From assembly GCA_902549495.1 (NCBI GenBank), contig CACCVU010000001.1, forward strand, positions 28,615 to 92,614: a DNA stretch of 64,000 nt, read 5' to 3'. The position numbers were made by a program, and so were the translations under genes. The notes under the pieces were generated by a model. That model did no database searches. It saw only the letters and a list, made by a program, of their open reading frames with translations, and was not told the DNA's origin. Below are positions 1,868-39,399 of this stretch, one piece after another; position 1 is the stretch's first letter; the number at the start of each line of letters is the position of its first letter. Source of the DNA: an uncultured Pelagibacteraceae bacterium (GTDB lineage Bacteria > Pseudomonadota > Alphaproteobacteria > Pelagibacterales > Pelagibacteraceae).

Positions 1868-1899
1868 ATTTTTTATAAAACGAATCTCTAGTATAAGTA

Positions 1900-1930
1900 G
1901 AATCATAAATATGTTACAGAATTGTTAAAA
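1900..1930. promoter_or_regulatory. Putative Pho box (PhoB site) in the divergent plcP/dagK promoter
   Basis: 11-bp periodic heptamers: minus strand TTTTAAC-aatt-CTGTAAC; plus strand ATGTTAC-agaa-TTGTTAA. Confidence 0.55.
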
Positions 1931-1931
1931 T

Positions 1932-12105: not shown

Positions 12106-12726
12106 ATGAGAATAAAAATTTGTGGCTTACACCCGGTCAGAGATGTACAGCTATGTCTCGACCTTGGAACAGATTTCTTAGGATTTATATTTTATGAAAA
12201 ATCTCCACGAAACCTAAACTTAGAAGATGTCCAAAAATTAAAGAAATACAATAAACAAAATTCTTTTTTTACAGCTGTAACTGTGGATCCAACTGATGAA
12301 TTTATCAAAAATACAGTTATTGGCAATTTCGATTATATACAACTTCATGGTTCAGAGAAGCCCGGAAGAGTAAAAGAAATCGCATCTATGGGATTAAAAG
12401 TAATAAAAGCTATTAAGGTAAAAGATGAATTGGATATAGACAATTATAAAAGTTATAATACTGCAGAAATAATTTTATTTGATACTCCTGGAATGGAAAA
12501 ATCTTTTGAGTTTCCAAAAAGTTTAATCTCAAAACTTCCTAAAGGGAATAGATTCGCATTAGCTGGCTCGATCAGTGAAAATAACGTTGAAAATCTTGTA
12601 AAATTAGGGGTTAACTTTTTTGATTTATCGTCTAGTTTAGAAACTAAATTAGGACATAAAGATCATTTAAAAATTCAAAATTTTATGAAAAAAATTAACT
12701 CAATAAATGAAAATTCCTCCATTTAA
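12106..12726 (+). CDS. trpF: Phosphoribosylanthranilate isomerase
   Basis: IKICG, GFIFYEKSPR, IQLHGSE; precedes trpB. Confidence 0.9.
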   Translation: MRIKICGLHPVRDVQLCLDLGTDFLGFIFYEKSPRNLNLEDVQKLKKYNKQNSFFTAVTVDPTDEFIKNTVIGNFDYIQLHGSEKPGRVKEIASMGLKVIKAIKVKDELDIDNYKSYNTAEIILFDTPGMEKSFEFPKSLISKLPKGNRFALAGSISENNVENLVKLGVNFFDLSSSLETKLGHKDHLKIQNFMKKINSINENSSI

Positions 12727-13951
12727 AGAAATAAATCCGCCTACAAAAGATGGTTTTTGGATTAATAAAAAAACTAAAGAGCGGTTTGGTGGTCAGTATA
12801 TCTCTCCTTTGCTTGTTCCAAATCTAAAAAGAGTAGAGAAAGGTTTTTTTAAGGCCATTAAAGATAAAAAGTTTATGACAGAGCTCAACGAGGAGTTGCT
12901 CTCTTTTATTGGTGTTAATACGCCTGTTCATTTTAGCCCAGAACTTACTAAATTAGCTGGAGGTGAAAAGAAAATTGGCAAAATTTATCTTAAAAGAACA
13001 GACTTACATACAAATCATAGTCACAAACCTGTATCTGCCTATTCTTCTTGTAAGCTAGCAAAGTATTTAGGCTTCAAAAAAATTTTAACAGAAACTGGTG
13101 CCTTCCAAAATGGTCGTGCCGTTGCCTCTGCTTGTGCTGCTTTAGGACTGGATTTAGATATATACGTTGGTGCAAAAGATGCAAAAAAATTGGCAATTAA
13201 TAAAGATATATCTGCCCTTCATGGTGCAAATATAATTGAGGTACATGACTCCACAAAATCTTTATTACCAGCTATGGCCGCGGCTCTTCGTGCTTTCCAA
13301 AGTGAACCTGACTCGATGTATGTAGTTGGCTCGGTCGCAGGTCCGATGCCGTACCCATTGCTCGTAAGAACATTCGCTAGTGTCATTGGCAGAATTACTA
13401 AAAAACAATTTAAAGATTTAGTTGGTAAAGATCCATCAACTATATTTTGCGTCTGCGGCGGCGGATCTAATATGCTTTCAATTCAATACCCCTATCTTAG
13501 AACCAAAAATACAAAATTATATGCAGTAGAGTCTGCTGGTAAGGGTTTAAAAACTGGAAAACACGGAGCTACTATTGGTGGCGGTGGAAAAATGGGAATT
13601 TTACTTGGCATGCAATCTAAAGTTTTGTTAGCTGGAGAGAATATTGCTGAAAGCTTCACTGAAGCTTCGGGCTTAGATTTTTCATCTATAGGGCCAGAAG
13701 TAGCATATCTCCAGTCGATAGGAAGGATAAAATTTTTGACTGCTACGGATTTAGAAGCAAAAAAAACCTTTATGATGATGGCTCGTAAAGTTGGTTTAAT
13801 TTGTGCTATCGAGGCTTGTTATGTGATTCATGCTGCAATCAAAGAAATTAGAAAAATAGGAAAGCCTAAACAAAATCATTTAATTCACTTATGTGGCGCT
13901 GGAGAACCAAATGTTGCACAAATGATGGAACATATGAAAAAAAATAAATGA
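12707..13951 (+). CDS. trpB: Tryptophan synthase beta chain (highly divergent)
   Basis: FGGQY, HSHK (PLP Lys), ETGA, GSVAGPMPYP, GGGSN, GLDF..IGPE; trpF-trpB-trpA order. Confidence 0.92.
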   Translation: MKIPPFKEINPPTKDGFWINKKTKERFGGQYISPLLVPNLKRVEKGFFKAIKDKKFMTELNEELLSFIGVNTPVHFSPELTKLAGGEKKIGKIYLKRTDLHTNHSHKPVSAYSSCKLAKYLGFKKILTETGAFQNGRAVASACAALGLDLDIYVGAKDAKKLAINKDISALHGANIIEVHDSTKSLLPAMAAALRAFQSEPDSMYVVGSVAGPMPYPLLVRTFASVIGRITKKQFKDLVGKDPSTIFCVCGGGSNMLSIQYPYLRTKNTKLYAVESAGKGLKTGKHGATIGGGGKMGILLGMQSKVLLAGENIAESFTEASGLDFSSIGPEVAYLQSIGRIKFLTATDLEAKKTFMMMARKVGLICAIEACYVIHAAIKEIRKIGKPKQNHLIHLCGAGEPNVAQMMEHMKKNK

Positions 13952-14772
13952 GTAAACTTAATATTCTTTTTAAAGAAGCCAAAAAAAATAAAAAAAAAAT
14001 ATTTATTGGATTTGTAACAAGCGGTGATCCCAATTACAAATCATCCAAAGAAATTATGAAAGAAATGACAAAATCTTGTCAGATTATTGAAGCAGGGCAA
14101 AGTTTTTCCACTAGCACAAGTGACTCGCCAATTATTATGGAGGCAAATGATCGGGCTATAAATTCTGGTATGAATATGAAAAAAACTTTTAAACTCATAA
14201 AAGAAGTGAAAAGAGAAACCAAGACAAATACTTGTTTTGTCATAATGACATATTTAAATCCGGTAAAGATCTTTGGATTAAAAAAATTTGTTAATCAATG
14301 TAATTTTGTGGGTATCGATGGTGTTATAATAGTAGATAGCAATCTAAACTCGCCAGAGGAAAAGATTTTAATAAATGGTCTCTCAAAAAATAAAATTGGT
14401 TACGTTAAAATCATTAGCCCTACAAACGACGATGAGTTTATTAAGCAAAGTATAAAAAATTGCCATGACTCTTGGTTGTATATTACTTCTTATTATGGAC
14501 TAACCGGCTCTAAAAACGTAAATATAAATAATGTTAAAGCAATGATAAAAAGAGTTAGAAAATATTCTAAAGATATACCTGTGGCAGTTGGATTTGGCGT
14601 AAAAACGCCATCTCAAGTAAAGCAAGTCTCTAAATATGCTGACGGGGTAATTTGTGGCTCAACTATAGTGAATAAAGTGGCACAGGGCCATAAAAAAAGG
14701 TTAAAAGGTAAAAAATTAGCCACATTTGTCTCATCTTATGTTAAGAAACTATCAAAGGGAATCAGGAAATGA
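13948..14772 (+). CDS. trpA: Tryptophan synthase alpha chain (divergent)
   Basis: SGDP, IIE..(E49) and SDSPII (D60), MTYLNP, GLTG, VGFGV, ADGVICGS. Confidence 0.92.
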   Translation: MSKLNILFKEAKKNKKKIFIGFVTSGDPNYKSSKEIMKEMTKSCQIIEAGQSFSTSTSDSPIIMEANDRAINSGMNMKKTFKLIKEVKRETKTNTCFVIMTYLNPVKIFGLKKFVNQCNFVGIDGVIIVDSNLNSPEEKILINGLSKNKIGYVKIISPTNDDEFIKQSIKNCHDSWLYITSYYGLTGSKNVNINNVKAMIKRVRKYSKDIPVAVGFGVKTPSQVKQVSKYADGVICGSTIVNKVAQGHKKRLKGKKLATFVSSYVKKLSKGIRK

Positions 14773-15734: not shown

Positions 15735-16950
15735 ATTATTTAACAAATCTGTTAAGTTTGGTCTTACAAGAATTAAACTTGCTCTCAATTTATTAGGAAA
15801 TCCAGAAAGAAAACTTAAAAACGTCATTAGCGTACTTGGAGAGTCAGGAAAATTCACTACGTTATGGTCATTAAAAAATTTCATAGAAGCGAACAATCAA
15901 ACTGTATCAACTTATACTTCGCCGTCAATTTTTGATATTCGAGATAGATACTATATGGGAAAAGGATATTTATCTTATAAAGAAATTAAAGAGACTATTA
16001 AAAAAATTGAAAAGTTAAAAATTCCCTTAACTGTGTATGAAGTTCTTACTTTAGTTTATGTAATAAATGCCTCCAAACTAAATGTAGATTATTTTATTAT
16101 AGAGACAGGAGCGCTGTGGAAAAATGATTGTTCGAATATATTTTTTTTCCCGCTCGCTCAAGTTGTTACAAATATAAATCTTCAACACAAGATATTTCTT
16201 AAAAAGAAAACTCTTGATGAAATAATAAAAGAAGATACAGGGTATTTATCCAGCTTTAGTAACATATATATAGCAAAACAAACTCCATATGTATTAAAGA
16301 AGGCTAAACTTTATTTGAAAAAAAATAAAAGTATAATCCATTATCCAAGTTCTTGGAGATTAATAAAAAAAAATAATCTTTATTTTTACCAAGATAAGTC
16401 AACAAAAATTAAGCTTAATGCTAAAAATGTACATAGCGAAGGCATGTTTAGCAATATTGCTCATGCTATCAAAATAGCTTTAGATTTAAATATCAGCAAA
16501 AAAGTTATAGAAAAAACTATTCCCAATCTAGCTTTTCCAGGAAGATACGATTATTTAAAAAAAGGTAAAATAAAAAAAATGTTACATAAAAATGAAATGA
16601 TAATGATAGATGGTGCTCATGCACCAGCAGACTCGTTGAATTTGTATAAATATCTTAAAACAATAAGATTACCCGTATATGGTGTTTGGGCTATGTCCAA
16701 AAATAAAGAGCCAGATGAATTCATTAAAAACTTGAAAGGTATTTTTAAAAAGATAGTTACCATTCCTATAAAAGACGAAGATTCCGTTTCTGCCAAAAAA
16801 CTCAACAAAATAGCCAATAATAATAAAATTAAGTCTGAAGCAGCAAAAGATTTTAAAGATGCATTAAAAAAAATCAGTAGTAATGAAAAAAAACTTATCT
16901 GCTGCTTCGGTAGCCTATATTCCGTTTCAAATATATTAAATCAAAACTAA
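15697..16950 (+). CDS. folC: Dihydrofolate/folylpolyglutamate synthase (highly divergent)
   Basis: GLTRIK..LGNPE, YTSP, FPGR, IDGAH, GSLY; synteny. Confidence 0.88.
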   Translation: MSKLIYQQLARHKLFNKSVKFGLTRIKLALNLLGNPERKLKNVISVLGESGKFTTLWSLKNFIEANNQTVSTYTSPSIFDIRDRYYMGKGYLSYKEIKETIKKIEKLKIPLTVYEVLTLVYVINASKLNVDYFIIETGALWKNDCSNIFFFPLAQVVTNINLQHKIFLKKKTLDEIIKEDTGYLSSFSNIYIAKQTPYVLKKAKLYLKKNKSIIHYPSSWRLIKKNNLYFYQDKSTKIKLNAKNVHSEGMFSNIAHAIKIALDLNISKKVIEKTIPNLAFPGRYDYLKKGKIKKMLHKNEMIMIDGAHAPADSLNLYKYLKTIRLPVYGVWAMSKNKEPDEFIKNLKGIFKKIVTIPIKDEDSVSAKKLNKIANNNKIKSEAAKDFKDALKKISSNEKKLICCFGSLYSVSNILNQN

Positions 16951-17267
16951 ACGTTTGCTTTTATCCAAGCTGTAACTGTTTCGTAATCCAAGGCTCCAAC
17001 TTTTTGGGAAACTACCTTCCGATTTTTTATTATGAACATTTGAGGGATGGATCTGATTCCAAATTCGGTCGCAGTCTCCACACCATCCTTATCAATTTCC
17101 ATAGAAACAAAATTTACATCAGGAAACGACTCCGATGCTTTTAAAACCACAGGGGTGAGTTGATGACATGGCCCGCAAAAATCTGCTTGAAATTTTATTA
17201 CTGTTGTTTTCGGGTTATCTAAAACTTCTTTTTTATAAGTTTCGTCTGTAACTTTTTTTATCGGCAT
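16947..17267 (-). CDS. trxA: Thioredoxin
   Basis: FCGPC active site, GIRSIP cis-Pro loop, VGAL. Confidence 0.92.
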   Translation of the reverse strand: MPIKKVTDETYKKEVLDNPKTTVIKFQADFCGPCHQLTPVVLKASESFPDVNFVSMEIDKDGVETATEFGIRSIPQMFIIKNRKVVSQKVGALDYETVTAWIKANV

Positions 17268-17311
17268 AAGGAAAATTATAAATATTAATGATAAAAGTCA
17301 ATTTTTTAAAA

Positions 17312-17512
17312 TTAATTATATATTGCAATCTGTTTATAACATTGAGGTTTTGTCCTGCTCCGGCCCACTTCAATTCTCTGGCCGGTATCTTTGACGCAAT
17401 AGATATAATAATAAAATTCGTTGTTTTCGTAGTCTCTTACTTCTTCAATTCGAATTTCTGTAATTGAGTTTTCTAATTCTTTATTATTATGTAGCTTAAT
17501 GATATTTGTCAT
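17312..17512 (-). CDS. Small hypothetical protein
   Basis: 66-aa ORF overlapping the upstream ORF in the same operon-like run. Confidence 0.6.
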   Translation of the reverse strand: MTNIIKLHNNKELENSITEIRIEEVRDYENNEFYYYIYCVKDTGQRIEVGRSRTKPQCYKQIAIYN

Positions 17513-17903
17513 TAGTATCTTTTTTATGATTGCCGTTATGAAGATGCTTATTACTTTTAACTAATAATGGTGTCACCTCATCCATTAATTCTGAATATTC
17601 TTGTTTTAATCTATTTAACCTTTCTTTCTTATCTTCCGCATCAATATATTTTTTCATTATTTCAACATCCACTACAGCTCTTTCGTAATCACGCCTATCT
17701 TTTAAGTAATAAAGATAGTTTAAAATATTTGTAGGTAAGTTTATGATCCAAAGCATTAAAGTTGTTAAGGGTAATCTAAATAGTAATTTATACTCTGTTT
17801 GTTTATAAAGTTCTTTGTAAGTAAAATAATCTTCCATTTGCCTCATATATTTAATTCTACCTTTAATACTCTTTTTAAAATGATAATAAATTCTTGTTTT
17901 CAT
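17496..17903 (-). CDS. Hypothetical protein with central hydrophobic segment and C-terminal coiled coil
   Basis: ORF; ATG 17903 lies just after the exonuclease I stop. Confidence 0.65.
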   Translation of the reverse strand: MKTRIYYHFKKSIKGRIKYMRQMEDYFTYKELYKQTEYKLLFRLPLTTLMLWIINLPTNILNYLYYLKDRRDYERAVVDVEIMKKYIDAEDKKERLNRLKQEYSELMDEVTPLLVKSNKHLHNGNHKKDTNDKYH

Positions 17904-17907
17904 ATTT

Positions 17908-19347
17908 TTAAATATATTTCTCGTAGCTTGATTGCATATTAAAAAGATACTTATCAAGTTTAATTAGTTTTTTCATTTTTTCATTATCTTCATCATTTTC
18001 AGCTTGTAGTTTTAAAGTATCGAGTCTTGCAAACTGCGCTGGTATATTTGTAAATACTGAGTCGTCTCCATCATTATTTAAAATAAAACTAGCTATTCTT
18101 TTTTTTATTCTTGTATAATCTCGTTTACTTAATATCTTAATAAAATCTTCTTCGGTATGTTCCTCATAAATAACCATTTCGGCTAAAGTCTTTATTTCGT
18201 CTCTTTTAAATTTATTAAATATCTTTTTCTTTTCATCATTTGTTTCCGCCAGATTAAATGCATCCATTAATTTTCTCTCTTCAATAGATGGGTTGAGTTT
18301 ATAAATCATTTGCTCAGGCTCTAATTTTCGCTGATCATTTTCCATTTTTTCATCTAGTCTCTCTTGTTGAATTTTCTTAATTTTATTTAATATTTCCTCT
18401 CTATTTTGACTTATAACTTTTTGTCTTCTCTCTAACTCTTTCATGCCTAAATTTTTATAAACATCATCATTAAGCGCATATTTCTTATCCATTAAAAGAG
18501 GGGATCGATTTGCTTTTTGTGTTCTGCACCACTTAGGAGAAGCATCCAGTTCTTTTTTAAATGCATCAGTGTCATTTAAAACACTCAGAATTTCTTCTGG
18601 CGATTTACGAAGATCATACGTCAAGTACCACGAAGGGTAGATCCCTTCTCCAAGTAACGTTCCCGCATATATCTTTGCAACCCTCCATGCTTCCATCCAA
18701 CAAAATATTGGCGTCGATAGAAGTTTTGGAAGTACGTCAGATTTTCTTCTTAAAGCTAGGGACGCCTTAAAAACTTCAGGAGCTTTTTTAGCTAACAACT
18801 CTCCTAACTTCATAGTACTTACAGTATCTCCATAACTAGTATGAGCTACAGTTTTTATATTATTCACTCTACAAACCGACTCGAGTTTATATATGGGTAA
18901 ATTTTTATCGTTTAGTTCAAAAGAGATAGAATTAGGTGCAAAAAGATTTACTGATCTCACGACAGGTAATAAATCAAACGAGTCGGAATTAGTCAGATAA
19001 GGCCAACGTAAATTCACAAATAAACTATGATTTAGTAAGACTGTATCGTAGTTATGATTATTAAATCCAACAAATATAGCTCCCATTTTTTTCCACTTAG
19101 TAAATTTCTCTTCTAATTTTTTTAACATCACGCCGTAAGTATCTTCTTTCATTAGATCATCTATATCTAATCCATTTACAAGCATCGCATCAACCTCAAG
19201 CGGTCTACTTTTTCGTGGCCTAGAAAGTAGTGTAAACTGGTCTAATATTTCAAACTTATCTGTCGTCAGCACTCCCGAAATACTCAGTACGCTCGCCTTG
19301 GTACATGCGCCGCTGTCACTTTCTATATCAAACCAACAAAAATACAT
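17908..19347 (-). CDS. sbcB: Exodeoxyribonuclease I-like DEDDh 3'-5' exonuclease (divergent)
   Basis: FDIES (Exo I), GFNNHNYD (Exo II), YKLE, AHTSYGD (Exo III), YDL motif; 479 aa. Confidence 0.8.
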   Translation of the reverse strand: MYFCWFDIESDSGACTKASVLSISGVLTTDKFEILDQFTLLSRPRKSRPLEVDAMLVNGLDIDDLMKEDTYGVMLKKLEEKFTKWKKMGAIFVGFNNHNYDTVLLNHSLFVNLRWPYLTNSDSFDLLPVVRSVNLFAPNSISFELNDKNLPIYKLESVCRVNNIKTVAHTSYGDTVSTMKLGELLAKKAPEVFKASLALRRKSDVLPKLLSTPIFCWMEAWRVAKIYAGTLLGEGIYPSWYLTYDLRKSPEEILSVLNDTDAFKKELDASPKWCRTQKANRSPLLMDKKYALNDDVYKNLGMKELERRQKVISQNREEILNKIKKIQQERLDEKMENDQRKLEPEQMIYKLNPSIEERKLMDAFNLAETNDEKKKIFNKFKRDEIKTLAEMVIYEEHTEEDFIKILSKRDYTRIKKRIASFILNNDGDDSVFTNIPAQFARLDTLKLQAENDEDNEKMKKLIKLDKYLFNMQSSYEKYI

Positions 19348-19354
19348 TTTTATT

Positions 19355-20716
19355 TTATGCTCTTTTCTTTTTTAAAATATTGTTTTTATTATCATCTTCA
19401 AATAATCCATCCGGAAGAATTTTTCTTATTGAAGGATGATTGTTAATGTTTTTCATATAAGTTGTTCTTCGATACTTATTAACTAAAGCATCTATCTCGA
19501 ATAATTTTAAATCTTTTTTGTTTAATATTTGATTTATATAATCTATTTCTTCATCATTAGTATTTTGATTTCTTCTTAAAAACTCTGGTATTTCAAAATC
19601 TACTTCTTGATTTGAGGTATTGTTAAATAAATTTGATAATTCTTTTGGTGCTGTGAAACCTGATTTCCATATCACTTTTCCAAGAACTCTAGGATTTCCA
19701 TCATTGTCGAACGCAGGGAAGGTTTGTCTAGAATATTCTTTGTTATCAGGTAATGAAATTATTTGAAACGTGTCTTTAAATTCAGAAAATTGCAGCCTCC
19801 TGACACATAATCCTTTCATCTCATTTACTAAAAATAAACCACTTTCAAATTCCTTATTGTTTTTTAAATCTTCTCTATTATTTAAAGTTACTCTTTCAAT
19901 TAAACAATCATCTCCTAATGAAATTGTAGGATGCATATAATCGTCATTTGCTTTAAAAAAGAACAAATTGGAAAAATTTTTAATTTTGGATTTTTTTCTA
20001 ATTGCACTTTTTTTTATTAAAAAACCACTTTCTTGGTCATTTATAAAATTGATTTTTTTATACTCTGAAGGTGAAAAAAAATTAGGTAAAAATATTTTTC
20101 TAAGACTTTCACAAATTACATAAAAATTTTTAATAGCATTTATTTCAATTTCAAAATTTTTAAGTTCTTTTAATTTTTTTTCTCCCAGTTCGTCTTTATC
20201 ATTTTTAGTTAAATTTTCTATACAATCAAAACCTCTTAAAGATAAAATATAATTTTCATATTTTTCCGACTCTACTATTGAAATATATTTGTTTATTATA
20301 ACTGATTCATCTTGATCAAAAATGTCATTCTTATTTATTGTTACATTATCCCCTTCTCCAATTTTTATTCCCCTGTTTAAACTCGAGATTGATAATATAT
20401 GGTGTTCTAAAGCAGGGATCAGGAGTTTCTCAATTACACCTCCATGTTCGAGTATCAAATTATAAAATAAGTCAAACCTACTTAAGTTTTCCTTGGGTTT
20501 ATGTTTTTTAGCTAAAGCGCGATAAATACTTAAAAGAAAAAAATAAGAGAAGCTTCTCGGAAATATTTTTTTATCATATCGATAAATATATCCAACTAGC
20601 GAATTTCTATGATGGCTTAAAGTTAAAGAACACTGTTGTTGTGATAAGTCTGCAAACTTTAATAAATTAGTTAAAAGTAGCTTATTGATAGCCAGCAATG
20701 TATTTTTAGAATCCAT
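19355..20716 (-). CDS. HTH-like + inactive S24 (LexA/CI-type) domain protein with FtsZ-tail-like peptide
   Basis: N-term LKFADLSQQQCSLTLSHHRNSLVGYI (XRE-like); DDYMHPTISLGD, LCVRRLQ, DNKEY, VLGKVIW (S24 pattern); DFEIPEFLRRNQN. Confidence 0.7.
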   Translation of the reverse strand: MDSKNTLLAINKLLLTNLLKFADLSQQQCSLTLSHHRNSLVGYIYRYDKKIFPRSFSYFFLLSIYRALAKKHKPKENLSRFDLFYNLILEHGGVIEKLLIPALEHHILSISSLNRGIKIGEGDNVTINKNDIFDQDESVIINKYISIVESEKYENYILSLRGFDCIENLTKNDKDELGEKKLKELKNFEIEINAIKNFYVICESLRKIFLPNFFSPSEYKKINFINDQESGFLIKKSAIRKKSKIKNFSNLFFFKANDDYMHPTISLGDDCLIERVTLNNREDLKNNKEFESGLFLVNEMKGLCVRRLQFSEFKDTFQIISLPDNKEYSRQTFPAFDNDGNPRVLGKVIWKSGFTAPKELSNLFNNTSNQEVDFEIPEFLRRNQNTNDEEIDYINQILNKKDLKLFEIDALVNKYRRTTYMKNINNHPSIRKILPDGLFEDDNKNNILKKKRA

Positions 20717-20769
20717 GCTCTTTATATATACTTATTTTATGCAGAAAAAAAGAAAAAAAAGTGTAAATT

Positions 20770-20786
20770 TACTGTTGACAACAGTA
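20770..20786. promoter_or_regulatory. Perfect palindromic operator-like site containing TTGACA
   Basis: TACTGTTG-A-CAACAGTA in the divergent intergenic region. Confidence 0.65.
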
Positions 20787-20809
20787 TTTATATATGATTT
20801 GCTGCTTTT

Positions 20810-20889
20810 ATGAGTAAAAATAAGACAAATATTAGGATGTCCTTTCCTTTCTACCTTTCTGATCCTTTTACTTGTCTTTTTTTACTCAT
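20810..20889 (+). ncRNA. Candidate structured RNA: long hairpin with CU-rich loop
   Basis: ATGAGTAAAAATAAGACAAATATTAGGAT pairs imperfectly with ATCCTTTTACTTGTCTTTTTTTACTCAT; loop GTCCTTTCCTTTCTACCTTTCTG. Confidence 0.55.
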
Positions 20890-20909
20890 TAACAAAAAAG
20901 GAGAAAAAA

Positions 20910-21293
20910 ATGCCTAAAGTGAGAAAAAATAAGTCTAAAGATAACGTTGTACCCTTTAATAAACCTAAGGTTGATAAAGTAGCCGAGGAAAAACGTGAGT
21001 TAAGACAAAGTGAACAAGATAGACTAAATGCTGTGATAAAAGAAAAATGCAGTGAAATTTTAGAAATAATTGATTTAAGCCAAATAGAAAAACAATGGGG
21101 CTTATATGCATTTTTATTTCATTGTAAACAAATAGCTGCATTTGATCTACACCCTTCAGAGTATGTTCGTATTAATGATGCAACAAACAAAGAGATCATT
21201 AAAAACCAAAGAGAATATTTAGAAGAATCATTCCCTGAGTTTGTAAGAGACGAATCAAATACTGAAGAAAATACAAAAAAGGTATTACATTAA
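20910..21293 (+). CDS. Hypothetical protein
   Basis: 127-aa ORF with AAGGAG SD; stop overlaps the rmuC start. Confidence 0.75.
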   Translation: MPKVRKNKSKDNVVPFNKPKVDKVAEEKRELRQSEQDRLNAVIKEKCSEILEIIDLSQIEKQWGLYAFLFHCKQIAAFDLHPSEYVRINDATNKEIIKNQREYLEESFPEFVRDESNTEENTKKVLH

Positions 21294-22477
21294 TGTTAGA
21301 ACCAATATTATATATATTCGTAGGGTTTGCATTAGCTTCTGTTGTTTGGTTTTTTTATTTTAAAAACAAAAACTCAAACTTAATTGATAGATCTGTTGTC
21401 GAAGAAAAAGAAAATTATATTAAAGACGCAGATCTATTAAACAAAGAATTAGAAGGCAAACTTTTAACAGTGCAAAAAGAAGTTGAATTAATAAATAAAG
21501 CAAAAGAAGAAGTAGGTAAAACTCTCGCTTTAGAAAGAGCAAATGCAAAAGAACAATTAAAAACAATTAATAATGTCGAGAAGTGGAGAGTAAATTCTGA
21601 AAAAGATTTAAAAAAATATGACGAATATGTCAAAGATACACTAAATTTTGTAGATAAATTAACAGGTGATGTTAAATACCAAGGGGATATAGGAGAGAAA
21701 CTATTATGTAAACTCTTGGAAATTCATGGCCTTCAAATTAATACGGATTTTATTGTACAAGAAGGGAATCAAGTTTACCAAGAAGTAAATGATGAAATTT
21801 TGCAAAGAGTTAGACCGGATGTAATTTTGAATCTTTCAAAAAACGAGCATGTGGTGGTTGACAGTAAAGTTTCACTTGTCGACTGGAAAAACTTTGCAAA
21901 TGAGAAGAATGATGAAAAAATTAGAAAAACTCACCTGAAAAAACACGTAAGTGCTATAGATAAACATATAACAACTTTATCTGGAAGAAATTACAATAAG
22001 CTACTCAACAAAAATGTTTTTCCGAGCGTGATATTATTTATACCTTTTGTGCCAGCATATCTGGCTGCAATAGAAGCTGATAATGAATTAATGGACCGAG
22101 CATATAAGAAAAATGTTATCTTGGCTTGTCCGGGGTCTTTGTTGCCAGTAATTAAAATTATTGAGACAATAAAAAGCAAAGATAAACAAATGGAAAATAT
22201 TAAAGATATTTCCAGTAATGCAACTTATTTGTATAATAAATTTGTTTTTCTAAAAAAAAATCTTAAATTAGCAATTAAGTCCTTCAGAGACCACTCTATT
22301 AATCTACAAAAAGTTATAGATACTGGTTGGGGAAATAAATCTTCTTTAGAAAAATCTTTTGAAAAATTTAAGAAGAAACACGGCTTGAACGAATCCAAAG
22401 AGATGCCCACAAGTACCTTAGAGGAAAATCAAATTAGCGATTTAGATGATCCTGAAGAAAAAACATCTGTAAATTAA
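21293..22477 (+). CDS. rmuC: DNA recombination protein RmuC family
   Basis: N-terminal TM, coiled coil, QGDIGE, RPDVILNL, VVDSKVSL (PD-(D/E)xK). Confidence 0.88.
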   Translation: MLEPILYIFVGFALASVVWFFYFKNKNSNLIDRSVVEEKENYIKDADLLNKELEGKLLTVQKEVELINKAKEEVGKTLALERANAKEQLKTINNVEKWRVNSEKDLKKYDEYVKDTLNFVDKLTGDVKYQGDIGEKLLCKLLEIHGLQINTDFIVQEGNQVYQEVNDEILQRVRPDVILNLSKNEHVVVDSKVSLVDWKNFANEKNDEKIRKTHLKKHVSAIDKHITTLSGRNYNKLLNKNVFPSVILFIPFVPAYLAAIEADNELMDRAYKKNVILACPGSLLPVIKIIETIKSKDKQMENIKDISSNATYLYNKFVFLKKNLKLAIKSFRDHSINLQKVIDTGWGNKSSLEKSFEKFKKKHGLNESKEMPTSTLEENQISDLDDPEEKTSVN

Positions 22478-22478
22478 T

Positions 22479-22682
22479 ATGAAAAAACACTTAGAGTATA
22501 CTGATGCAAAATCTAATAAGTTCTGGGAGATAGAGCTTAAAGATAAATCGATAAATATTTGCTATGGCAGAATTGGTATTGAAAATCCTGCTAAACAAAA
22601 CAAATCTTTTCCATCTGCAGATTTAGCTAAGAAGTATTACGAAAAAAAATTAAGAGAAAAGATTAATAAGGGTTATAAATAA
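22479..22682 (+). CDS. Stand-alone WGR domain protein
   Basis: SNKFWEI, YGRIG, EKINKGY. Confidence 0.85.
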   Translation: MKKHLEYTDAKSNKFWEIELKDKSINICYGRIGIENPAKQNKSFPSADLAKKYYEKKLREKINKGYK

Positions 22683-22683: not shown

Positions 22684-23634
22684 TTAAAGGTACTCTATAA
22701 TTTTTTGCGCTGGAATCGTTTTTTTAATCCAAGCTAAAGGGATATTCCTTTTTTTTAATGCAGAAAAATAAGATCCACAAAAAATAGCTCTGCTGCAGTT
22801 ACATCCTCCAGCTTTAATTGTCTTAATGATTGCAGACTCATAATTGCTTGAAGTAATTATGCAATGAATTGAACTCTTGAAGTTCGAATTATCTGAGCAT
22901 GCCTTCCCCAACATTCTTGTAACGTAAGTATGATTTTGATTTTTAAGTTTTAATACCTTCTTAATGTCTGTGATTACATCTTTAAAATATCTATTTTTAA
23001 TATTTAATTTAATAAATTTTTGAATAGGATTTTTCTCCCCTTTGCTAGCTAAATCTATAATCTTTAATCTGGCCAATCCATAAACTTCGTTTTTATGAGA
23101 ATTTGCGCAAGTTCTAATAACTTTTTTAATTTCTCTATCTTCTTTGCTTACTAAAAAATAATACGGTAATGCCGCATTAAATCCATCTGTTTCTTGAACT
23201 TTTGTACCTCCTGTGATCCTTTTTTTTTCTTTAATATTCCGAATGGTCTCAAGCGTGTTTTGGTGCAACCAATTGCCCAGTAACGGACGCTTCCATTTAA
23301 TCTTTTTATATTTTTTTCTCTCTTTTAAATTTTTCCAGTAATTAGAACCAGGACCAAAATGCTGAACTATGTTTTTTTTAAAATTTGGAAGTATGTCTGA
23401 TTTCTTTTTAGAAGTTATTATTGTTTGAAACATAACTAATCCCATGTCTGCGTAGCCTGATGTTAAACCCGTCTCTAAAGCATAAAAAGGAGATTTGTTT
23501 TCTTTTAGAAAAGCAATTTCTTTTTTCCCTTTAATATATCTTTTAAGTTTGTTAGGATCATAAACCCAATGAAGAGGGCGGGCTGCTGCGTCTGCTACAA
23601 CAGCTCCTAGGAAAATATTTAAGTCTTGAAACAT
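22684..23634 (-). CDS. ADP-ribosylglycohydrolase family protein
   Basis: LGAVVADAAARPLHWVY, ETDG, AGGCNCSRA. Confidence 0.8.
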   Translation of the reverse strand: MFQDLNIFLGAVVADAAARPLHWVYDPNKLKRYIKGKKEIAFLKENKSPFYALETGLTSGYADMGLVMFQTIITSKKKSDILPNFKKNIVQHFGPGSNYWKNLKERKKYKKIKWKRPLLGNWLHQNTLETIRNIKEKKRITGGTKVQETDGFNAALPYYFLVSKEDREIKKVIRTCANSHKNEVYGLARLKIIDLASKGEKNPIQKFIKLNIKNRYFKDVITDIKKVLKLKNQNHTYVTRMLGKACSDNSNFKSSIHCIITSSNYESAIIKTIKAGGCNCSRAIFCGSYFSALKKRNIPLAWIKKTIPAQKIIEYL

Positions 23635-24777: not shown

Positions 24778-24972
24778 TTAGAGCTTTTTAGGCTCTGTTT
24801 TTTTGTGACCAAGAATTTTTCCTTGATTCGAACCTGAAGACAATTTTATCCCGAAAGTTCCGTTGTCTCCGGCTGCTACAGCCTTTTTTGCTTTAGATAA
24901 CTGTGAAGAAAGATTCTGCTCAAGTTTTTTATCTCGCAGATCTTTATACAGTTTGCTAAATCTGTCAATCAT
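24778..24972 (-). CDS. Small basic hypothetical protein
   Basis: 64 aa MIDRFSKLYKDLRDKK..., AAAGGAG SD 5 nt before ATG 24972. Confidence 0.75.
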   Translation of the reverse strand: MIDRFSKLYKDLRDKKLEQNLSSQLSKAKKAVAAGDNGTFGIKLSSGSNQGKILGHKKTEPKKL

Positions 24973-25090
24973 AGCAACTCCTTTTGTTTCTGCGATCTTT
25001 ATAATCCCTACAGGATCCAGCATGATCTATGCTGTACACTTTGCAAGATGAAAACATCATCTTATCCATGTGATATGGAATTACCTGAAA
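24973..25090 (-). ncRNA. Candidate structured 5' leader (four tandem hairpins)
   Basis: TCCAT/ATGGA, AAGATGA/TCATCTT, CAGCAT/ATGCTG, GATCCT/AGGGATT stems; TTGACA at 25119-25114 upstream. Confidence 0.5.
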
Positions 25091-25118
25091 CATTAATATA
25101 TGTATATATAAATTGTCA

Positions 25119-25280
25119 ATGGATAATAAGTTTATATTAGGTTTGTGTATCATAGGTTTTGGTCTCTTGTTATTGATGTCACCTGAGAAACATAGCTGGA
25201 TTTTCAGCGCTTTAGCGGTGGGGATAGGTTCAGGATTAATCCTTAAAAGAAGTGAAAAAAATGATAAAGACGATAAGTAA
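25119..25280 (+). CDS. Small two-TM membrane protein (not in ORF track)
   Basis: 53 aa MDNKFILGLCIIGFGLLLLMSPEKHSWIFSALAVGIGSGLILKRSEKNDKDDK; stop overlaps the next ATG. Confidence 0.7.
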   Translation: MDNKFILGLCIIGFGLLLLMSPEKHSWIFSALAVGIGSGLILKRSEKNDKDDK

Positions 25281-25864
25281 TGTCTAAAAAAGTTTTTATT
25301 GCATTTGCACATCCTAAATATAAATCTGGTGAAAGTTTCAACTCATGTGTTCGTGATGAATTTATTAAAAGTTCAAAAGAGCGTAACTTCGAAATAGATC
25401 TAATGAATATATACGAGGAAAAAACTATTAAGTTTTGGGACGGTAGTCCTCCTGACAATCAAATTTTAGACATTCAAAACAGAATGGAAAAAGCGGATAT
25501 AATTTTTCTTTTATCGCCCTGTCATAATTTTACAATGGTAGCAGCAATGGAAAATATGTTGAGTCACGTGATAAGCCCTCCATTTGCATTTAAATATAAG
25601 AAGATAATTGGAAACTGGGGCGCCCCTCAGCACGGAAAATTGAAAAATAAAAAAGTTGTAATTGGAATGACGTATGGATCTCCTTCCCCAATTATCACCT
25701 TTGCTGTGCATCAGATACCAAGAAGAATAAAAAAAATGGTTTTTAAACACCTTTGCGGTTGTGATGTTCAGTACCTCAGAATGTACGAAGTTCTGCCAAA
25801 TATGCCTCAAAAAGTTTTTGAAAAACACATGAAAAGTGTAAGAAAATTAGTGCGAAGTTTATAA
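25280..25864 (+). CDS. NAD(P)H-dependent oxidoreductase, flavodoxin-like fold
   Basis: IAFAHP...SFN, ADIIFLLSP, MTYGSP. Confidence 0.8.
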   Translation: MSKKVFIAFAHPKYKSGESFNSCVRDEFIKSSKERNFEIDLMNIYEEKTIKFWDGSPPDNQILDIQNRMEKADIIFLLSPCHNFTMVAAMENMLSHVISPPFAFKYKKIIGNWGAPQHGKLKNKKVVIGMTYGSPSPIITFAVHQIPRRIKKMVFKHLCGCDVQYLRMYEVLPNMPQKVFEKHMKSVRKLVRSL

Positions 25865-25901
25865 TAATTTAAAATTTTTTTAAAAAGTATATAAATAAAA
25901 T

Positions 25902-26357
25902 ATGGAAAAAATAAAAAATTGGTTCGTAAACGCTGCTTCAATAATGTTCGACGATTCAGGTTCCAATGATTTTAGAAATTTACCGAAGGTCGTGAGGCTA
26001 CAAATCCTTTGCGTCATGAGCTTTCTATGGAGCTTATTATTTTCACTTTACGTATTTAATGTTACCACTTTTGCCCTGGGTTTCGCCGGAGTATTTGTTG
26101 CTCATGTATTGCTAATAATTTTAACGTACTATACTTTTAAAGTTTTTCATAAAGCAAAAAAACGAGAACAAACAGGATTTGAAGAACAGAAAGAATTAAG
26201 CCCGCCAAAAATTTTTGCAGTAATTTTTATTATATTTTTTATGTTTATTTTTACAAAAGGTATAGATGTTATGACAAAGTCAAACTCGTACGAGGATCCT
26301 AGCTATACCGGGCCAGACACAAGCACACTGGACCGTATAAAAAGATTTGTGAAATAA
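25902..26357 (+). CDS. Hypothetical membrane protein
   Basis: Three hydrophobic helices. Confidence 0.75.
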   Translation: MEKIKNWFVNAASIMFDDSGSNDFRNLPKVVRLQILCVMSFLWSLLFSLYVFNVTTFALGFAGVFVAHVLLIILTYYTFKVFHKAKKREQTGFEEQKELSPPKIFAVIFIIFFMFIFTKGIDVMTKSNSYEDPSYTGPDTSTLDRIKRFVK

Positions 26358-26381
26358 TTTAATCTTTATTACAATTAATCA

Positions 26382-27221
26382 ATGAAATTATTGAGAGTAG
26401 GTGAACTAGGTAAAGAAAAAGTAGCTGCTTTAGACAAGAATAATGTAATCAGAGATTTGTCAAAACATATTGAAGATCTAACTCCTCAAAATTTTAATGA
26501 TACAACTTTAAGTAAACTAAAATCCATAGACCTTTCCAAAGAAAAAGAAGTTAACTCAACAATAAGAATTGGTTCGTTTATTAAAGATCCAAAAAATTAC
26601 TTTTGCGTTGGAAAAAATTTCAAACTGCACGCACAAGAAGTTGGGTCAAAGGCTCCAAAAAATCCTATGATTTTTTCAAAAGCTAATTGTATATCTGGAC
26701 CTAATGATGACATTATAATACCAAGGGATTCAAAAAAAGTTGACTGGGAGTGTGAAATTGGAGTTTGTTTAAAAAGTGAAGTTTATCAGATTACCCAGGA
26801 TGATAGTGAAAAATGTATTGGTGGATATTTTTTAGCTAACGACGTGAGTGCAAGAGATTTTCAATTAGAAAAGTCTGGTCAATATATTATAGGAAAATCC
26901 TCACCTTCTTTCGGACCAATCGGCCCATATTTAGTAACTCCAGACGAAATAAAAGATGTAAATAATTTAAAAATGAAAACAATAGTTAATGGAAAAATTA
27001 TGCAAAATGGTAACACCAAAGATATGATACATTCCATAAACTATGTAATTTCATATCTGAGTACTTTTATCAAATTACATAGCGGCGACCTAATAGTTTT
27101 CGGCACACCAAATGGGGTAGCAGCTGGCCAGACTAATCCTGTTTTTTTAAAAAATGGTGACACTATTGAACTTGAAATTGAGAGTCTAGGAAGGCAAACT
27201 CACAACGTAAGAGACCAATAA
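26382..27221 (+). CDS. Fumarylacetoacetate hydrolase family protein
   Basis: CVGKNF..H, DWECE, NDVSARDFQ, GKS, GPIGP, GTPNGV. Confidence 0.92.
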   Translation: MKLLRVGELGKEKVAALDKNNVIRDLSKHIEDLTPQNFNDTTLSKLKSIDLSKEKEVNSTIRIGSFIKDPKNYFCVGKNFKLHAQEVGSKAPKNPMIFSKANCISGPNDDIIIPRDSKKVDWECEIGVCLKSEVYQITQDDSEKCIGGYFLANDVSARDFQLEKSGQYIIGKSSPSFGPIGPYLVTPDEIKDVNNLKMKTIVNGKIMQNGNTKDMIHSINYVISYLSTFIKLHSGDLIVFGTPNGVAAGQTNPVFLKNGDTIELEIESLGRQTHNVRDQ

Positions 27222-27223
27222 TT

Positions 27224-27334
27224 ATGTCAAAAAGATTTTCAGGTGCTTGTAGAAAAGACAGAAGTTTCAAAAAGAAAGCTAAGTTATCTTTAAAAGAAAA
27301 AAGAAGACTTAAAAGAGAGAAAAGAAATAAATAA
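27224..27334 (+). CDS. Very small basic protein (not in ORF track)
   Basis: 36 aa MSKRFSGACRKDRSFKKKAKLSLKEKRRLKREKRNK fills the gap, 2 nt from both neighbours. Confidence 0.6.
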   Translation: MSKRFSGACRKDRSFKKKAKLSLKEKRRLKREKRNK

Positions 27335-27336
27335 TT

Positions 27337-27963
27337 ATGTGCGGAAGATATAGTGTTCAGAAAAAAACTTTGCTTGTAGCTAATGGTTTAGTTAAGAAGA
27401 ATATTAATGTTGATCTCGAGCAAGACAATTTTAATTGTGCTCCTGGAGGAAAATACCCGTGCATCAAATCTGCTACTAACGGAAAATATCTTGAAATGAC
27501 TATTTTTGGCTACCTTCCATCTTGGAGTAAGCCAGATTTTAGGCGATTACACAATGCTAGATTAGAGGGTATAGAGACCAAAGTAAGTTTTAAAAAACTT
27601 ATTGTAAATTCAAGAGCGGTAGTGCCTCTCTCTGGATTTATTGAGTGGTCTAAGGTGAACGAAAAGAAAGTTCCCTACTATTTTACCAGAGCAGACTCTG
27701 AAGATATCTTTTGCCCAGCTATTCATGATGCAGGACAATTCACAATTCTTACCAGAGATGCCACTCCTCAGAATGCTAAAATTCACCACAGACAGCCAGT
27801 AATAATCTCGAAATCTCAAATTAATAATTATTTTAATTTAAATAATAATGCAGTAGAATTTTTAAAAACTGTAAAACCACCTGAGCTAAAATACCATGAA
27901 ATTTCAACTAAAATTAATAATCCAAGTGCAAACGACGCAACATTAATTAACCCTATAAACTAA
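27337..27963 (+). CDS. SOS response-associated peptidase (SRAP/YedK, abasic-site protecting)
   Basis: MCGRY N-terminus, NARLE, FIEW, IHHRQP. Confidence 0.92.
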   Translation: MCGRYSVQKKTLLVANGLVKKNINVDLEQDNFNCAPGGKYPCIKSATNGKYLEMTIFGYLPSWSKPDFRRLHNARLEGIETKVSFKKLIVNSRAVVPLSGFIEWSKVNEKKVPYYFTRADSEDIFCPAIHDAGQFTILTRDATPQNAKIHHRQPVIISKSQINNYFNLNNNAVEFLKTVKPPELKYHEISTKINNPSANDATLINPIN

Positions 27964-31353: not shown

Positions 31354-31381
31354 AATAAGGGGTATGCGAATACCCCTTATT
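31354..31381 (+). promoter_or_regulatory. Perfect 12-bp hairpin with GNRA loop covering SD and start codon
   Basis: AATAAGGGGTAT-GCGA-ATACCCCTTATT. Confidence 0.6.
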
Positions 31382-37264: not shown

Positions 37265-37277
37265 ATAATTTCCTATT

Positions 37278-39362: not shown

Positions 39363-39366
39363 TAAT

Positions 39367-39394
39367 CTTGAAAAAATAAAAATAATTCCCATAT
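39367..39394 (+). promoter_or_regulatory. RpoH (sigma-32) promoter
   Basis: CTTGAA-N15-CCCATAT upstream of the sHSP gene. Confidence 0.8.
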
Positions 39395-39399
39395 AAATC

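What the first reader, a model, noticed from the sequence alone, without database searches (positions are those of the whole stretch)
17312..22682. Divergent two-operon module at the epicentre: [orf-orf-ExoI-HTH/S24] <- operator/hairpin -> [orf-RmuC-WGR]
Seen: left operon with gaps of a few nt or overlaps (S24 protein, exonuclease I, two orphans) and right operon with coupled genes (127-aa orphan, membrane-anchored RmuC nuclease-fold protein, WGR protein). The layout resembles a phage cI/cro switch, but there are no integrase, capsid, terminase or replicase genes. Its recognisable genes are all nucleic-acid end or ssDNA handling functions. Inference: a domesticated regulatory and DNA-processing system, and the best candidate cause or marker of the local hypermutation (e.g. 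a site of repeated breakage, resection and error-prone fill-in, or a replication terminus).
Basis: inference. Interest (0 to 1): 0.8.

Follow-up and report, generated by a model that had tools for sequence, protein, structure and literature searches.

The report
Regulated RmuC–exonuclease I locus variant
This SAR11 genome carries a rare, horizontally exchanged version of a nuclease locus found in all its relatives, here controlled by a LexA-like repressor that cannot cut itself and whose floppy tail copies the tail of the cell-division protein FtsZ; it marks, but does not cause, the strong local sequence divergence.

Summary
The described genes are real: tightly coupled regulator–ExoI–o153–o66 (minus strand) facing o127–RmuC–WGR (plus strand) across a 193-bp control region. 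The set recurs colinearly in 6 other same-genus SAR11 genomes, and with shuffled order in 8 of 212 genomes of a sister genus, always at the same chromosomal site. RmuC+ExoI(+thioredoxin) next to folC is a single-copy locus across the family (ExoI in 60 of 61 genomes). It exists in at least three deep haplotype classes, and the window has the rare regulator-bearing one. On trees, its ExoI and RmuC cluster across genera, away from same-genus alleles. The 453-aa protein is HTH + helical domain + LexA-fold domain (Z 12.6) with Ser→Tyr, Lys→Arg and no cleavage site. Its disordered tail repeats the host FtsZ C-terminal peptide (DFEIPEFLRR versus DFEIPAFLRR). The locus lies 50–82 kb from dnaA, so it is not the terminus. 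Flank divergence is a mosaic of discrete, shared allele classes, which indicates recombination and hitch-hiking rather than hypermutation. There are no phage genes, no reverse transcriptase and no known defence system. The biological role remains inferred. Other first-stage notes of this scan, on this same window, had already flagged the dead S24 domain, the FtsZ mimic, the palindrome and the hairpin.

The parts
17312..17512 (-). o66: 66-aa orphan, last gene of the left operon. It is highly conserved (75-94% identity) even between loci whose ExoI is under 40% identical.
   Evidence: no family hit; Atlas search uninformative
17496..17957 (-). o153: small protein with one hydrophobic segment (probably membrane-associated). 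An alternative ATG at 17903 would give 135 aa. Weakly conserved homologues occur in all MID and EXT loci.
   Evidence: only sub-threshold hits (SLATT_4 E 0.015)
17908..19347 (-). Exonuclease I (SbcB)-like DEDDh exonuclease of the divergent 'EXT' lineage. It is the only ExoI found in this 58%-complete assembly.
   Evidence: NCBIfam PRK11779 69 bits over residues 3-472 and PADLOC SbcB-like 97 bits. D-x-E, D and H-x4-D motifs read in the sequence. Single copy. EXT clade SH-aLRT 100.
19355..20716 (-). 453-aa repressor-like protein. Residues 4-100 form an XRE-type HTH, 100-215 a helical domain, 220-355 a LexA/cI S24 fold without the catalytic Ser/Lys, and 356-453 a disordered tail.
   Evidence: AF2 model; Foldseek and VIA matches to LexA, UmuD and lambda cI; alignment with this genome's own LexA and UmuD shows GDSM->DDYM and KR->RR
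19571..19600 (-). FtsZ C-terminal-peptide mimic DFEIPEFLRR (residues 373-382) inside the disordered tail. The tail also carries LF-acidic motifs and a C-terminal KKKRA.
   Evidence: FtsZ of the same genus ends ...LFDQD..EEDFEIPAFLR[RK]QKF. The motif is unique among 262,000 ORF residues of this genome. It recurs in relatives.
20768..20780 (.). Invariant box TTTACTGTTGACA (contains TTGACA): candidate operator and/or -35 element. In this genome it is extended to a 15-bp palindrome, 20771-20785.
   Evidence: Identical in all 7 genus-g1 loci, while the right half of the palindrome varies (ACAGTA / TGCAAA / ACTAGT)
20807..20892 (+). Long hairpin with a 23-nt CU-rich loop in the leader of o127-rmuC-wgr. 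It is flanked by sequence able to pair with the Shine-Dalgarno (GGAG at 20900-20903).
   Evidence: MFE -28.3 kcal/mol, z -4.9. It is conserved in 7 loci with one UA<->GC compensatory pair and G.U changes that fit the + strand. No Rfam family matches.
20910..21293 (+). o127: SAR11-only orphan with a disordered basic N-terminus (NVVPF motif) followed by a small helical bundle.
   Evidence: About 100 clusters, all marine and about 127 aa. AF2 pLDDT 71.8. No fold match above Z 4.3. Homologues occur in MID and EXT loci.
21293..22477 (+). RmuC family nuclease with an N-terminal hydrophobic anchor, a coiled coil and a PD-(D/E)xK core. It is the only RmuC found in this 58%-complete assembly.
   Evidence: Pfam RmuC 161 bits; single copy; clade with other EXT RmuC, support 97
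22479..22682 (+). Stand-alone 67-aa WGR domain protein, translationally coupled to rmuC.
   Evidence: Pfam WGR 55 bits. It is 89-95% identical in the six related loci. WGR was found only in regulator-bearing genomes among 5 tested.
16947..17267 (-). Thioredoxin: the conserved downstream neighbour of the RmuC/ExoI cluster across the family (flank, not module-specific).
   Evidence: Pfam 75 bits; synteny

Best explanation
The window holds the rare, regulator-bearing haplotype of a core DNA-processing locus of the Pelagibacteraceae. Every genome of the family encodes one membrane-anchored RmuC nuclease and one exonuclease I next to folC-trx, 50-82 kb from dnaA. Here these two nucleases belong to an old, separate allelic lineage that is exchanged between genera by homologous recombination at the conserved flanks. 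They have been split into two divergent operons together with four accessory proteins (o127, WGR, o153, o66).

Inferred mechanism. The 453-aa protein is a LexA/lambda-cI-type repressor. It binds the invariant TTTACTGTTGACA box and keeps o127-rmuC-wgr, and probably its own operon, off. A structured, SD-occluding leader adds translational control. Because the S24 domain lacks the Ser/Lys dyad and the cleavage site, induction cannot be RecA-stimulated self-cleavage. Instead, the disordered tail copies the host FtsZ tail (LF-acidic motif, DFEIPxFLRR, basic C-terminus ending in Ala). It is proposed to be the input, through binding to an FtsZ-tail partner (FtsA or a Clp-type protease), which would sequester or degrade the repressor. 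Once expressed, WGR would recognise nicks or ends, RmuC would cut, and ExoI would resect 3' single strands.

The surrounding divergence comes from co-transfer and hitch-hiking of flanking alleles with these haplotypes, not from local mutagenesis.

Shown: gene content, fold, loss of catalytic residues, motif identity, distribution, phylogeny and position. Inferred: operator binding, induction route, biochemical order and biological role.
For: Module conservation: it is colinear in 6 more genus-g1 genomes. The same gene set occurs in shuffled order in 8 of 212 genus-g6 genomes at the same site.

Core locus: ExoI is present in 60 of 61 family genomes. ExoI and RmuC are single copy and adjacent to trx/folC.

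Separate lineage: the ExoI EXT clade has SH-aLRT 100 on a stem of 0.92 and spans two genera. The RmuC EXT clade has support 97.

Regulator: fold shown. Ser->Tyr/Asn and Lys->Arg against this genome's own LexA and UmuD. A canonical LexA is present elsewhere in the genome.

FtsZ-tail copy. The same tail sits on the ExoI of the regulator-less locus in G024.

Control region: the intergenic region is more conserved than the genes beside it, and the box is invariant. The hairpin shows covariation.

Position: distance to dnaA.

Flanks: mosaic alleles.

Expression (weak): contigs from RNA libraries of three studies cover the leader, o127, rmuC, wgr and parts of the regulator and ExoI.
Against: No DNA binding, induction signal or nuclease activity is shown. 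The promoter scan is uninformative in this AT-rich DNA. The full palindrome is not conserved, so the operator may be something else. Some family members lack the EIPxFL motif (AG-911-E05, AG-349-F22, G116). Others lack most of the S24 barrel. The tail motifs may therefore be dispensable or serve several ends. The rarity (about 4%), the cross-genus transfer and the neighbours (restriction-modification system, PIF1, helicase-nucleases) fit a defence role at least as well as regulated repair. Most genomes compared are incomplete single-cell assemblies.
Confidence: 0.6

Rival explanations
1. The module is an anti-phage or anti-plasmid defence cassette. The repressor or its FtsZ-like tail would act as a sensor or decoy for an infection cue, and RmuC, ExoI and WGR would destroy invading or host DNA. 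Diversifying selection by phages would explain the deep haplotypes and the hitch-hiking divergence.
For: The distribution is sporadic: 8 of 212 genus-g6 genomes, and few in genus g1. The module is transferred across genera. Gene order and content vary strongly. Variable neighbours include a C5 methyltransferase with a putative endonuclease, a PIF1 helicase, a 530-aa GHKL-like protein and a TM0106 nuclease with a Mokosh-like helicase. TM-anchored RmuC proteins accompany some defence reverse transcriptases (PMC9226505). SAR11 defence systems are reported as sporadic and recombination-shared (PMC13712998).
Against: No PADLOC system is present. Only accessory-gene models match, and the genome has no reverse transcriptase. 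The module's ExoI and RmuC are the only copies in the genome and occupy the housekeeping locus, so losing the housekeeping function would be the price. No toxin-like effector was recognised.
Confidence: 0.25
2. The module is a division checkpoint. The regulator's FtsZ-tail mimic competes with FtsZ for FtsA or other tail partners. This would delay division while RmuC and ExoI process damaged or trapped DNA, or it would recruit the nucleases to the septum.
For: The tail matches the host FtsZ peptide at 9 of 10 positions and also shares the upstream LF-acidic motif. RmuC is predicted to be membrane-anchored. In G024 the same tail is attached directly to ExoI.
Against: The motif is missing in several family members. 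A repressor is normally present at low copy number, which suits titration of divisome proteins poorly. No localisation or binding data exist.
Confidence: 0.1
3. One reading: the module is a site of repeated breakage, resection and error-prone fill-in, or a replication terminus, and this generates local hypermutation.
For: The divergence trough is centred at or near the module. The genes handle DNA ends.
Against: Allele classes are discrete and shared between genomes and genera. Genomes that carry the module differ in which flank alleles they have. Genomes without the module (SIMPLE and MID loci) show the same deep polymorphism of ExoI and RmuC. The locus lies 50-82 kb from dnaA. No error-prone polymerase is encoded in the module.
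Confidence: 0.03
4. The module is a degraded prophage or other mobile-element remnant that retains a cI/cro-type immunity switch.
For: The arrangement is divergent, with a cI-like repressor that hits PHROG repressor families (phrog_4 E 4e-9).
Against: The module sits at a fixed chromosomal site with conserved core neighbours in two genera. No integrase, att-like repeats or phage genes were seen. The first gene of the opposite operon is not an HTH protein. No close relatives of the regulator or o127 were found in IMG/VR.
Confidence: 0.02

Closest known systems
LexA / phage lambda cI / 186 CI family of S24-fold repressors
   Same: It has an N-terminal HTH plus a C-terminal S24 beta-barrel, Z 12.6 to T. 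maritima LexA and 9.5-9.8 to lambda and 186 repressors. It sits divergently to the operon it presumably controls.
   Different: The Ser nucleophile is replaced by Tyr (Asn or Leu in relatives), the Lys by Arg, and there is no Ala-Gly cleavage loop. It has an extra 115-residue helical domain and a 100-residue disordered tail carrying FtsZ-like motifs. A canonical LexA exists separately in the genome.
Non-cleaving repressors relieved by a partner (SaPI Stl, ImmR/ImmA, DdrO/IrrE, CapH/CapP)
   Same: It has an XRE-type HTH whose release must depend on another protein. The structural matches are weak: Stl 7p4a Z 7.5 over residues 4-191, and CapH, DdrO and ImmR at Z 4.5-5.7.
   Different: No partner protease gene is adjacent. 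The proposed input is a mimic of the FtsZ tail, which is not described for these systems in the papers searched.
E. coli RmuC (YigN) and exonuclease I (SbcB)
   Same: They belong to the same families. Both act on DNA ends and recombination intermediates (established knowledge of these families).
   Different: In SAR11 the two are adjacent, syntenic and co-inherited as haplotypes. No paper describing this was found. This ExoI scores far below the equivalog cut-off (69 versus 260 bits).
Hitch-hiking of housekeeping genes beside polymorphic loci (E. coli gnd next to the O-antigen rfb cluster); low-identity core regions in SAR11 populations
   Same: A syntenic core region shows abnormally low identity that decays with distance from a polymorphic cassette. 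Low-AAI core regions maintained by recombination have been reported for a SAR11 genomospecies (PMC11796062).
   Different: Here the polymorphic cassette is a nuclease locus rather than a surface-polysaccharide locus. That paper does not name this locus. The gnd/rfb parallel is from my own knowledge.
FtsZ conserved C-terminal peptide and its partners (FtsA, ZipA, MinC, ZapD, SlmA, ClpX)
   Same: The sequence DFEIPEFLRR compares with the host FtsZ DFEIPAFLRR, and both have an upstream LF-acidic motif.
   Different: It sits in a transcription-factor-like protein (and once on ExoI), is internal rather than near the C-terminus, and no binding is shown.

Membership tests
Peptidase S24 / LexA-type self-cleaving repressor | S24 beta-barrel fold | tested here: met
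   VIA-align Z 12.6, rmsd 2.3 A over 112 residues to 3k2z; Foldseek probability 1.00 to LexA and UmuD
Peptidase S24 / LexA-type self-cleaving repressor | Ser nucleophile and Lys general base | tested here: not met
   Alignment with this genome's own LexA and UmuD gives GDSM->DDYM and KR->RR. Relatives have Asn or Leu at the Ser position.
Peptidase S24 / LexA-type self-cleaving repressor | Ala-Gly (or Cys-Gly) cleavage-site loop before the barrel | tested here: not met
   No counterpart of LexA's AAG segment appears in the alignment. The Pfam match in a relative starts at model position 29, after that region.
Peptidase S24 / LexA-type self-cleaving repressor | Curated family score | tested here: not met
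   No Pfam hit at E<0.01. Whole-genome scan gives 18 bits against a cut-off of 23.3. The relative in G161 reaches 34.5 bits.
Exodeoxyribonuclease I (SbcB) | Full-length match to the equivalog model above its cut-off | tested here: not met
   NF008746 scores 69 bits against a cut-off of 260, although the alignment covers residues 3-472 of 479. Same-genus SIMPLE alleles reach 178 bits.
Exodeoxyribonuclease I (SbcB) | DEDDh catalytic motifs | tested here: met
   FDIES, NNHNYD and H-TSYGD were read in the sequence; PADLOC DEDDh model E 2e-9
RmuC family (PF02646) | Pfam gathering score | tested here: met
   161.5 bits against a cut-off of 26
WGR domain (PF05406) | Pfam gathering score | tested here: met
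   55.1 bits against a cut-off of 22
Phage cI/cro immunity switch | Cro-like HTH as first gene of the opposite operon, repeated operators, and phage genes nearby | tested here: not met
   o127 is a helical protein with no HTH match. Only one invariant box is present. No phage genes occur in the locus or in 15 related loci.
Defence-associated reverse transcriptase systems (PADLOC RTasSbcB / RTasRmuC accessory models) | A reverse transcriptase gene | tested here: not met
   No RVT_1 match anywhere in the assembly, including the whole contig that holds the window. The assembly is 58% complete.
FtsZ C-terminal peptide (functional mimic) | Binding to an FtsZ-tail partner such as FtsA | not testable with these tools
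   Only the sequence identity to the host FtsZ tail is shown. Binding needs a bench assay.

The most novel reading that the evidence does not exclude
The FtsZ-tail copy on a catalytically dead LexA-like repressor (and, in one genome, on ExoI itself) is a working molecular mimic. It would tie expression or placement of a membrane-anchored nuclease system to the divisome or to FtsZ-directed proteolysis. Alternatively, it would serve as a decoy that detects phage factors attacking FtsZ. Either way, this would be a previously undescribed way of inducing a repressor-controlled nuclease system in the ocean's most abundant bacteria.
Probability: 0.2. Interest if true: 0.85.

Novelty: new variant of a known kind. 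Interest (0 to 1): 0.62.

Why it matters
SAR11 is the most abundant marine bacterial group. It is known for streamlined genomes, few regulators and very high recombination. This locus shows three things.

1. A family-wide, syntenic RmuC–exonuclease I pair. No paper describing it was found, and it gives a genetic handle on the poorly understood RmuC.

2. Ancient haplotypes of core DNA-processing genes that move between genera and drag neighbouring housekeeping genes (trpBA, accD, folC, rlmN) to about 30% identity. This is a clean case for studying how recombination and selection shape 'core' diversity.

3. A repressor family that has lost self-cleavage and instead carries short motifs copied from the host FtsZ tail. 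If functional, this links DNA processing to cell division or regulated proteolysis in a new way.

Tried and rejected
- Complex prediction with the same-genus FtsA (alignment of 27 sequences) and regulator tail residues 358-402 gave no verdict (score 0.05). It is not evidence either way.
- Rfam found no family for the hairpin or the intergenic region.
- The sigma-70 and terminator scan gave fewer hits than shuffled controls and is uninformative in 28% GC DNA.
- Pfam, NCBIfam, PHROGs and PADLOC gave nothing significant for o66, o153 and o127.
- The ESM Atlas feature search for o127 and o66 found only unnamed clusters. One weak (0.83) viral-labelled cluster was not confirmed.
- The fold search of o127 gave only generic long-helix matches, Z <= 4.3.
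- A profile search of PDB sequences with the regulator family found no hit.
Single-protein scans for the regulator and o127 found no relatives, but these detect close relatives only.
- Literature searches for RmuC+WGR and RmuC+ExoI operons found nothing relevant.
- RNA-library contigs left 16900-18531 (o66, o153) uncovered. This is not interpretable.
- The idea that the 453-aa protein is the SOS LexA of SAR11 was rejected, because a canonical LexA and a UmuD-like protein exist elsewhere in the genome.
- The idea that the perfect 15-17 bp palindrome is the operator was weakened, because only its left half is conserved.

Full report
**Observation.** The window is a 28-33% GC segment of a 0.68-Mb, 58%-complete single-cell-type assembly. 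It maps to contig C1:28615-92614. The related genome records found are titled 'uncultured Pelagibacteraceae bacterium'.

- Minus strand: a 453-aa protein (19355-20716), a 479-aa ExoI-like protein (17908-19347), o153 (17496-17957) and o66 (17312-17512). They are separated by 7 nt or overlap.
- Plus strand: o127 (20910-21293), RmuC (21293-22477) and WGR (22479-22682). They overlap or are separated by 1 nt.

RmuC and WGR pass Pfam thresholds. ExoI has no Pfam hit. It aligns end to end with the NCBIfam exodeoxyribonuclease I model at 69 bits (cut-off 260) and with a PADLOC SbcB-like model at 97 bits, and it keeps the DEDDh motifs. The flanks are thioredoxin (16947-17267) on one side, and an ADP-ribosylglycohydrolase and rlmN on the other.

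**The module is real and co-inherited.** The 453-aa protein was found in only one of 24 same-genus species representatives, G005. There, all seven genes are colinear. A scan of 185,579 species genomes found six loci, all SAR11 single-cell genomes, one of which is G005. Each locus has the complete module between folC/trx and ARH/rlmN.

A profile of the regulator family found it in 8 of 212 sampled genomes of a sister genus, g6. There the regulator is again followed by ExoI. It faces an operon containing o127-like, WGR and/or o153-like genes and RmuC, sometimes with a 530-aa GHKL-like protein and a 1119-1134-aa TM0106 RecB-like nuclease/SF1 helicase. The site next to trx/folC is the same. Metagenomic relatives at 30-38% identity show the same regulator-to-ExoI pairing and a divergent small gene.

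**It is a variant of a core locus.** ExoI is present in 60 of 61 family genomes. ExoI and RmuC are single copy in all five genomes tested, including two with the module. Across nine genera the order rpsA...trpB-trpA-accD-folC | trx-ExoI-RmuC is conserved. Three locus classes appear:
- SIMPLE: RmuC and ExoI only.
- MID: o127, RmuC, ExoI, o153 and o66 on one strand. Examples are G024, G128, G167, G234, G247 and G063.
- EXT: with the regulator. The window belongs to this class.

On maximum-likelihood trees the 12 EXT ExoI sequences form one clade (SH-aLRT 100, stem 0.92) spanning both genera, apart from same-genus SIMPLE alleles. RmuC shows EXT (97), MID (99) and SIMPLE (99) clades with very long stems. 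The classes are therefore old haplotypes that replace each other in situ and cross genus boundaries.

**The regulator.** AlphaFold2 on a 26-sequence alignment gave pLDDT 73.7. The domains are:
- Residues 4-100: an XRE-type HTH (Z 5-6.2 to C-proteins, ClgR and CapH; Stl Z 7.5).
- Residues 100-215: helical.
- Residues 220-355: the LexA/UmuD/lambda-cI fold (Z 12.6, rmsd 2.3 A over 112 residues).
- Residues 356-453: disordered.

Aligned with this genome's own LexA and UmuD, the nucleophile motif GDSM reads DDYM, the KR reads RR, and no cleavage loop is present. Relatives have Asn or Leu at the Ser position, and some have lost most of the barrel. A canonical LexA and a UmuD-like gene exist elsewhere in the genome. 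This protein is therefore an additional, non-self-cleaving repressor-like protein.

**The tail.** Residues 373-382 read DFEIPEFLRR. FtsZ of the same genus ends ...LFDQD..EEDFEIPAFLR[RK]QKF. In three related genomes the tail reads NLFDQDFEIPEFL..., so it copies both the upstream LF-acidic motif and the conserved C-terminal peptide. Sister-genus FtsZ ends ...PDLF...DDLEIPAFLRRQKN, and sister-genus regulators carry PNLFDEK..DFEIPLFI.

The strict motif occurs once in 262,000 residues of long ORFs in this assembly. FtsZ itself is not in this incomplete assembly. The family also shares an LFEIDxLVNKY motif and an invariant C-terminal Ala after basic residues (KKKRA, KKLA, KKIA). In G024, which has no regulator, ExoI carries a 50-residue extension with HEIPKFLRE and a KKDIA end. 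The tail therefore behaves as a portable element tied to this nuclease system. Its partner is unknown. FtsA exists in the genus, between ddl/ftsQ and lpxC, and evolves fast.

**Control region.** Among seven genus-g1 loci the 193-bp intergenic region is better conserved than the adjacent genes, and TTTACTGTTGACA is invariant.

The leader hairpin (20807-20892) folds at -28.3 kcal/mol (z -4.9). It has a CU-rich 23-nt loop and flanking sequence that can pair with the Shine-Dalgarno. It is kept in all seven loci, with one UA<->GC compensatory pair and G.U changes compatible with an RNA on the plus strand. G005 has a sequence-divergent but structurally similar hairpin, duplicated. No Rfam family matches.

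Short contigs from RNA libraries of three studies cover the leader, o127, rmuC and wgr, as well as parts of the regulator and ExoI. This is a weak hint of transcription.

**Orphans.** o127 belongs to about 100 marine clusters, all about 127 aa. It has a disordered basic N-terminus with an NVVPF motif and a small helical bundle, with no informative fold match. o66 is strongly conserved (75-94%) even where the neighbouring ExoI is under 40% identical. WGR was found only in regulator-bearing genomes among five tested.

**Divergence and position.** Against G007, protein identity is 99-100% at window 44-2828 and mostly 90-99% (one gene at 81%) at 36752-49316. It falls to 29-36% at trpB, trpA, accD, trx and ExoI, so the divergent zone is real and its minimum adjoins the module.

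The pattern, however, is a mosaic of discrete classes. folC is 69% identical to G007 but 31% to G005, and rlmN is 71% versus 38%. Among module-bearing genomes trpB is 95, 93, 62 or 32%. Even between genomes with 99% identical outer flanks, the regulator (70%), o127 (64%) and RmuC (75%) differ much more than ExoI (94%). The rare trpBA allele is partly linked to EXT loci in both genera.

This fits recombinational exchange of old haplotypes with hitch-hiking flanks. Low-identity core regions maintained by recombination have been described for SAR11 (PMC11796062). It does not fit in-situ hypermutation.

The locus is 73-82 kb from dnaA in five complete 1.2-1.4-Mb genomes and about 50 kb from it in this genome. 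It is therefore not a terminus.

**What it is not.** It contains no phage genes. No close relatives were found in IMG/VR. The assembly has no reverse transcriptase and no PADLOC system.

**Verdict.** It is wrong on cause (hypermutation) and on the terminus. The biological role is inferred and cannot be decided here between regulated recombination/repair control, defence, and division-coupled DNA processing.

Noticed in passing
window 12707-14772: trpB/trpA are a rare allele class. They are 27-31% identical to those of almost all other Pelagibacteraceae sampled, but 93-95% in two same-genus genomes and 57% in one sister-genus genome that also has an EXT locus. NCBIfam trpB scores 310 bits, below the 392 cut-off.
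   Followed up: partly
L013:6560-8059 (also L012, L017): A 499-aa PIF1-like helicase gene is inserted between the ADP-ribosylglycohydrolase and WGR genes in three related single-cell genomes. It is absent from the window.
   Followed up: partly
L009:11857-13529 (G024): A C5 cytosine methyltransferase with an adjacent 215-aa orphan (a possible restriction enzyme) lies between the nuclease locus and the ADP-ribosylglycohydrolase gene.
   Followed up: no
L009:8465-10048 (G024 ExoI): This ExoI has a C-terminal extension with HEIPKFLRE and a KKDIA end. These are the same tail motifs as the regulators, in a locus that has no regulator.
   Followed up: partly
L003:9186-9368 and L009:11105-11290: A 60-61-aa ORF with a ribbon-helix-helix-like N-terminus lies between o127 and rmuC in G005 and G024. 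It is missing from the window, where o127 abuts rmuC.
   Followed up: no
L038:12166-13758 and L038:15501-18905 (G116): Sister-genus EXT loci add two genes. One is a 530-aa protein with GHKL-ATPase-like N-terminal motifs and no family hit. The other is a 1134-aa TM0106 RecB-like nuclease fused to an SF1 helicase that resembles Mokosh MkoA.
   Followed up: partly
L044:1228-2427 and L092-L120: SAR11 FtsA is unusually divergent. It is below the TIGR01174 cut-off, only 38-51% identical within the genus, and about 22% identical between genera. The FtsZ C-terminal peptide, by contrast, is almost invariant.
   Followed up: no
window 22684-23634: An ADP-ribosylglycohydrolase gene lies tail to tail with the WGR gene. 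WGR is best known from poly(ADP-ribose) polymerases. However, the hydrolase is also present in genomes without WGR (G007) and absent next to WGR in G005, so the pairing looks incidental.
   Followed up: partly
window 3173-36759: The whole 33-kb stretch is 30-87% identical in protein to G007 apart from one gene at 95%, while both outer flanks are mostly 90-100% identical. Several secondary minima occur, for example at 24778-27963 and 31364-32431.
   Followed up: partly
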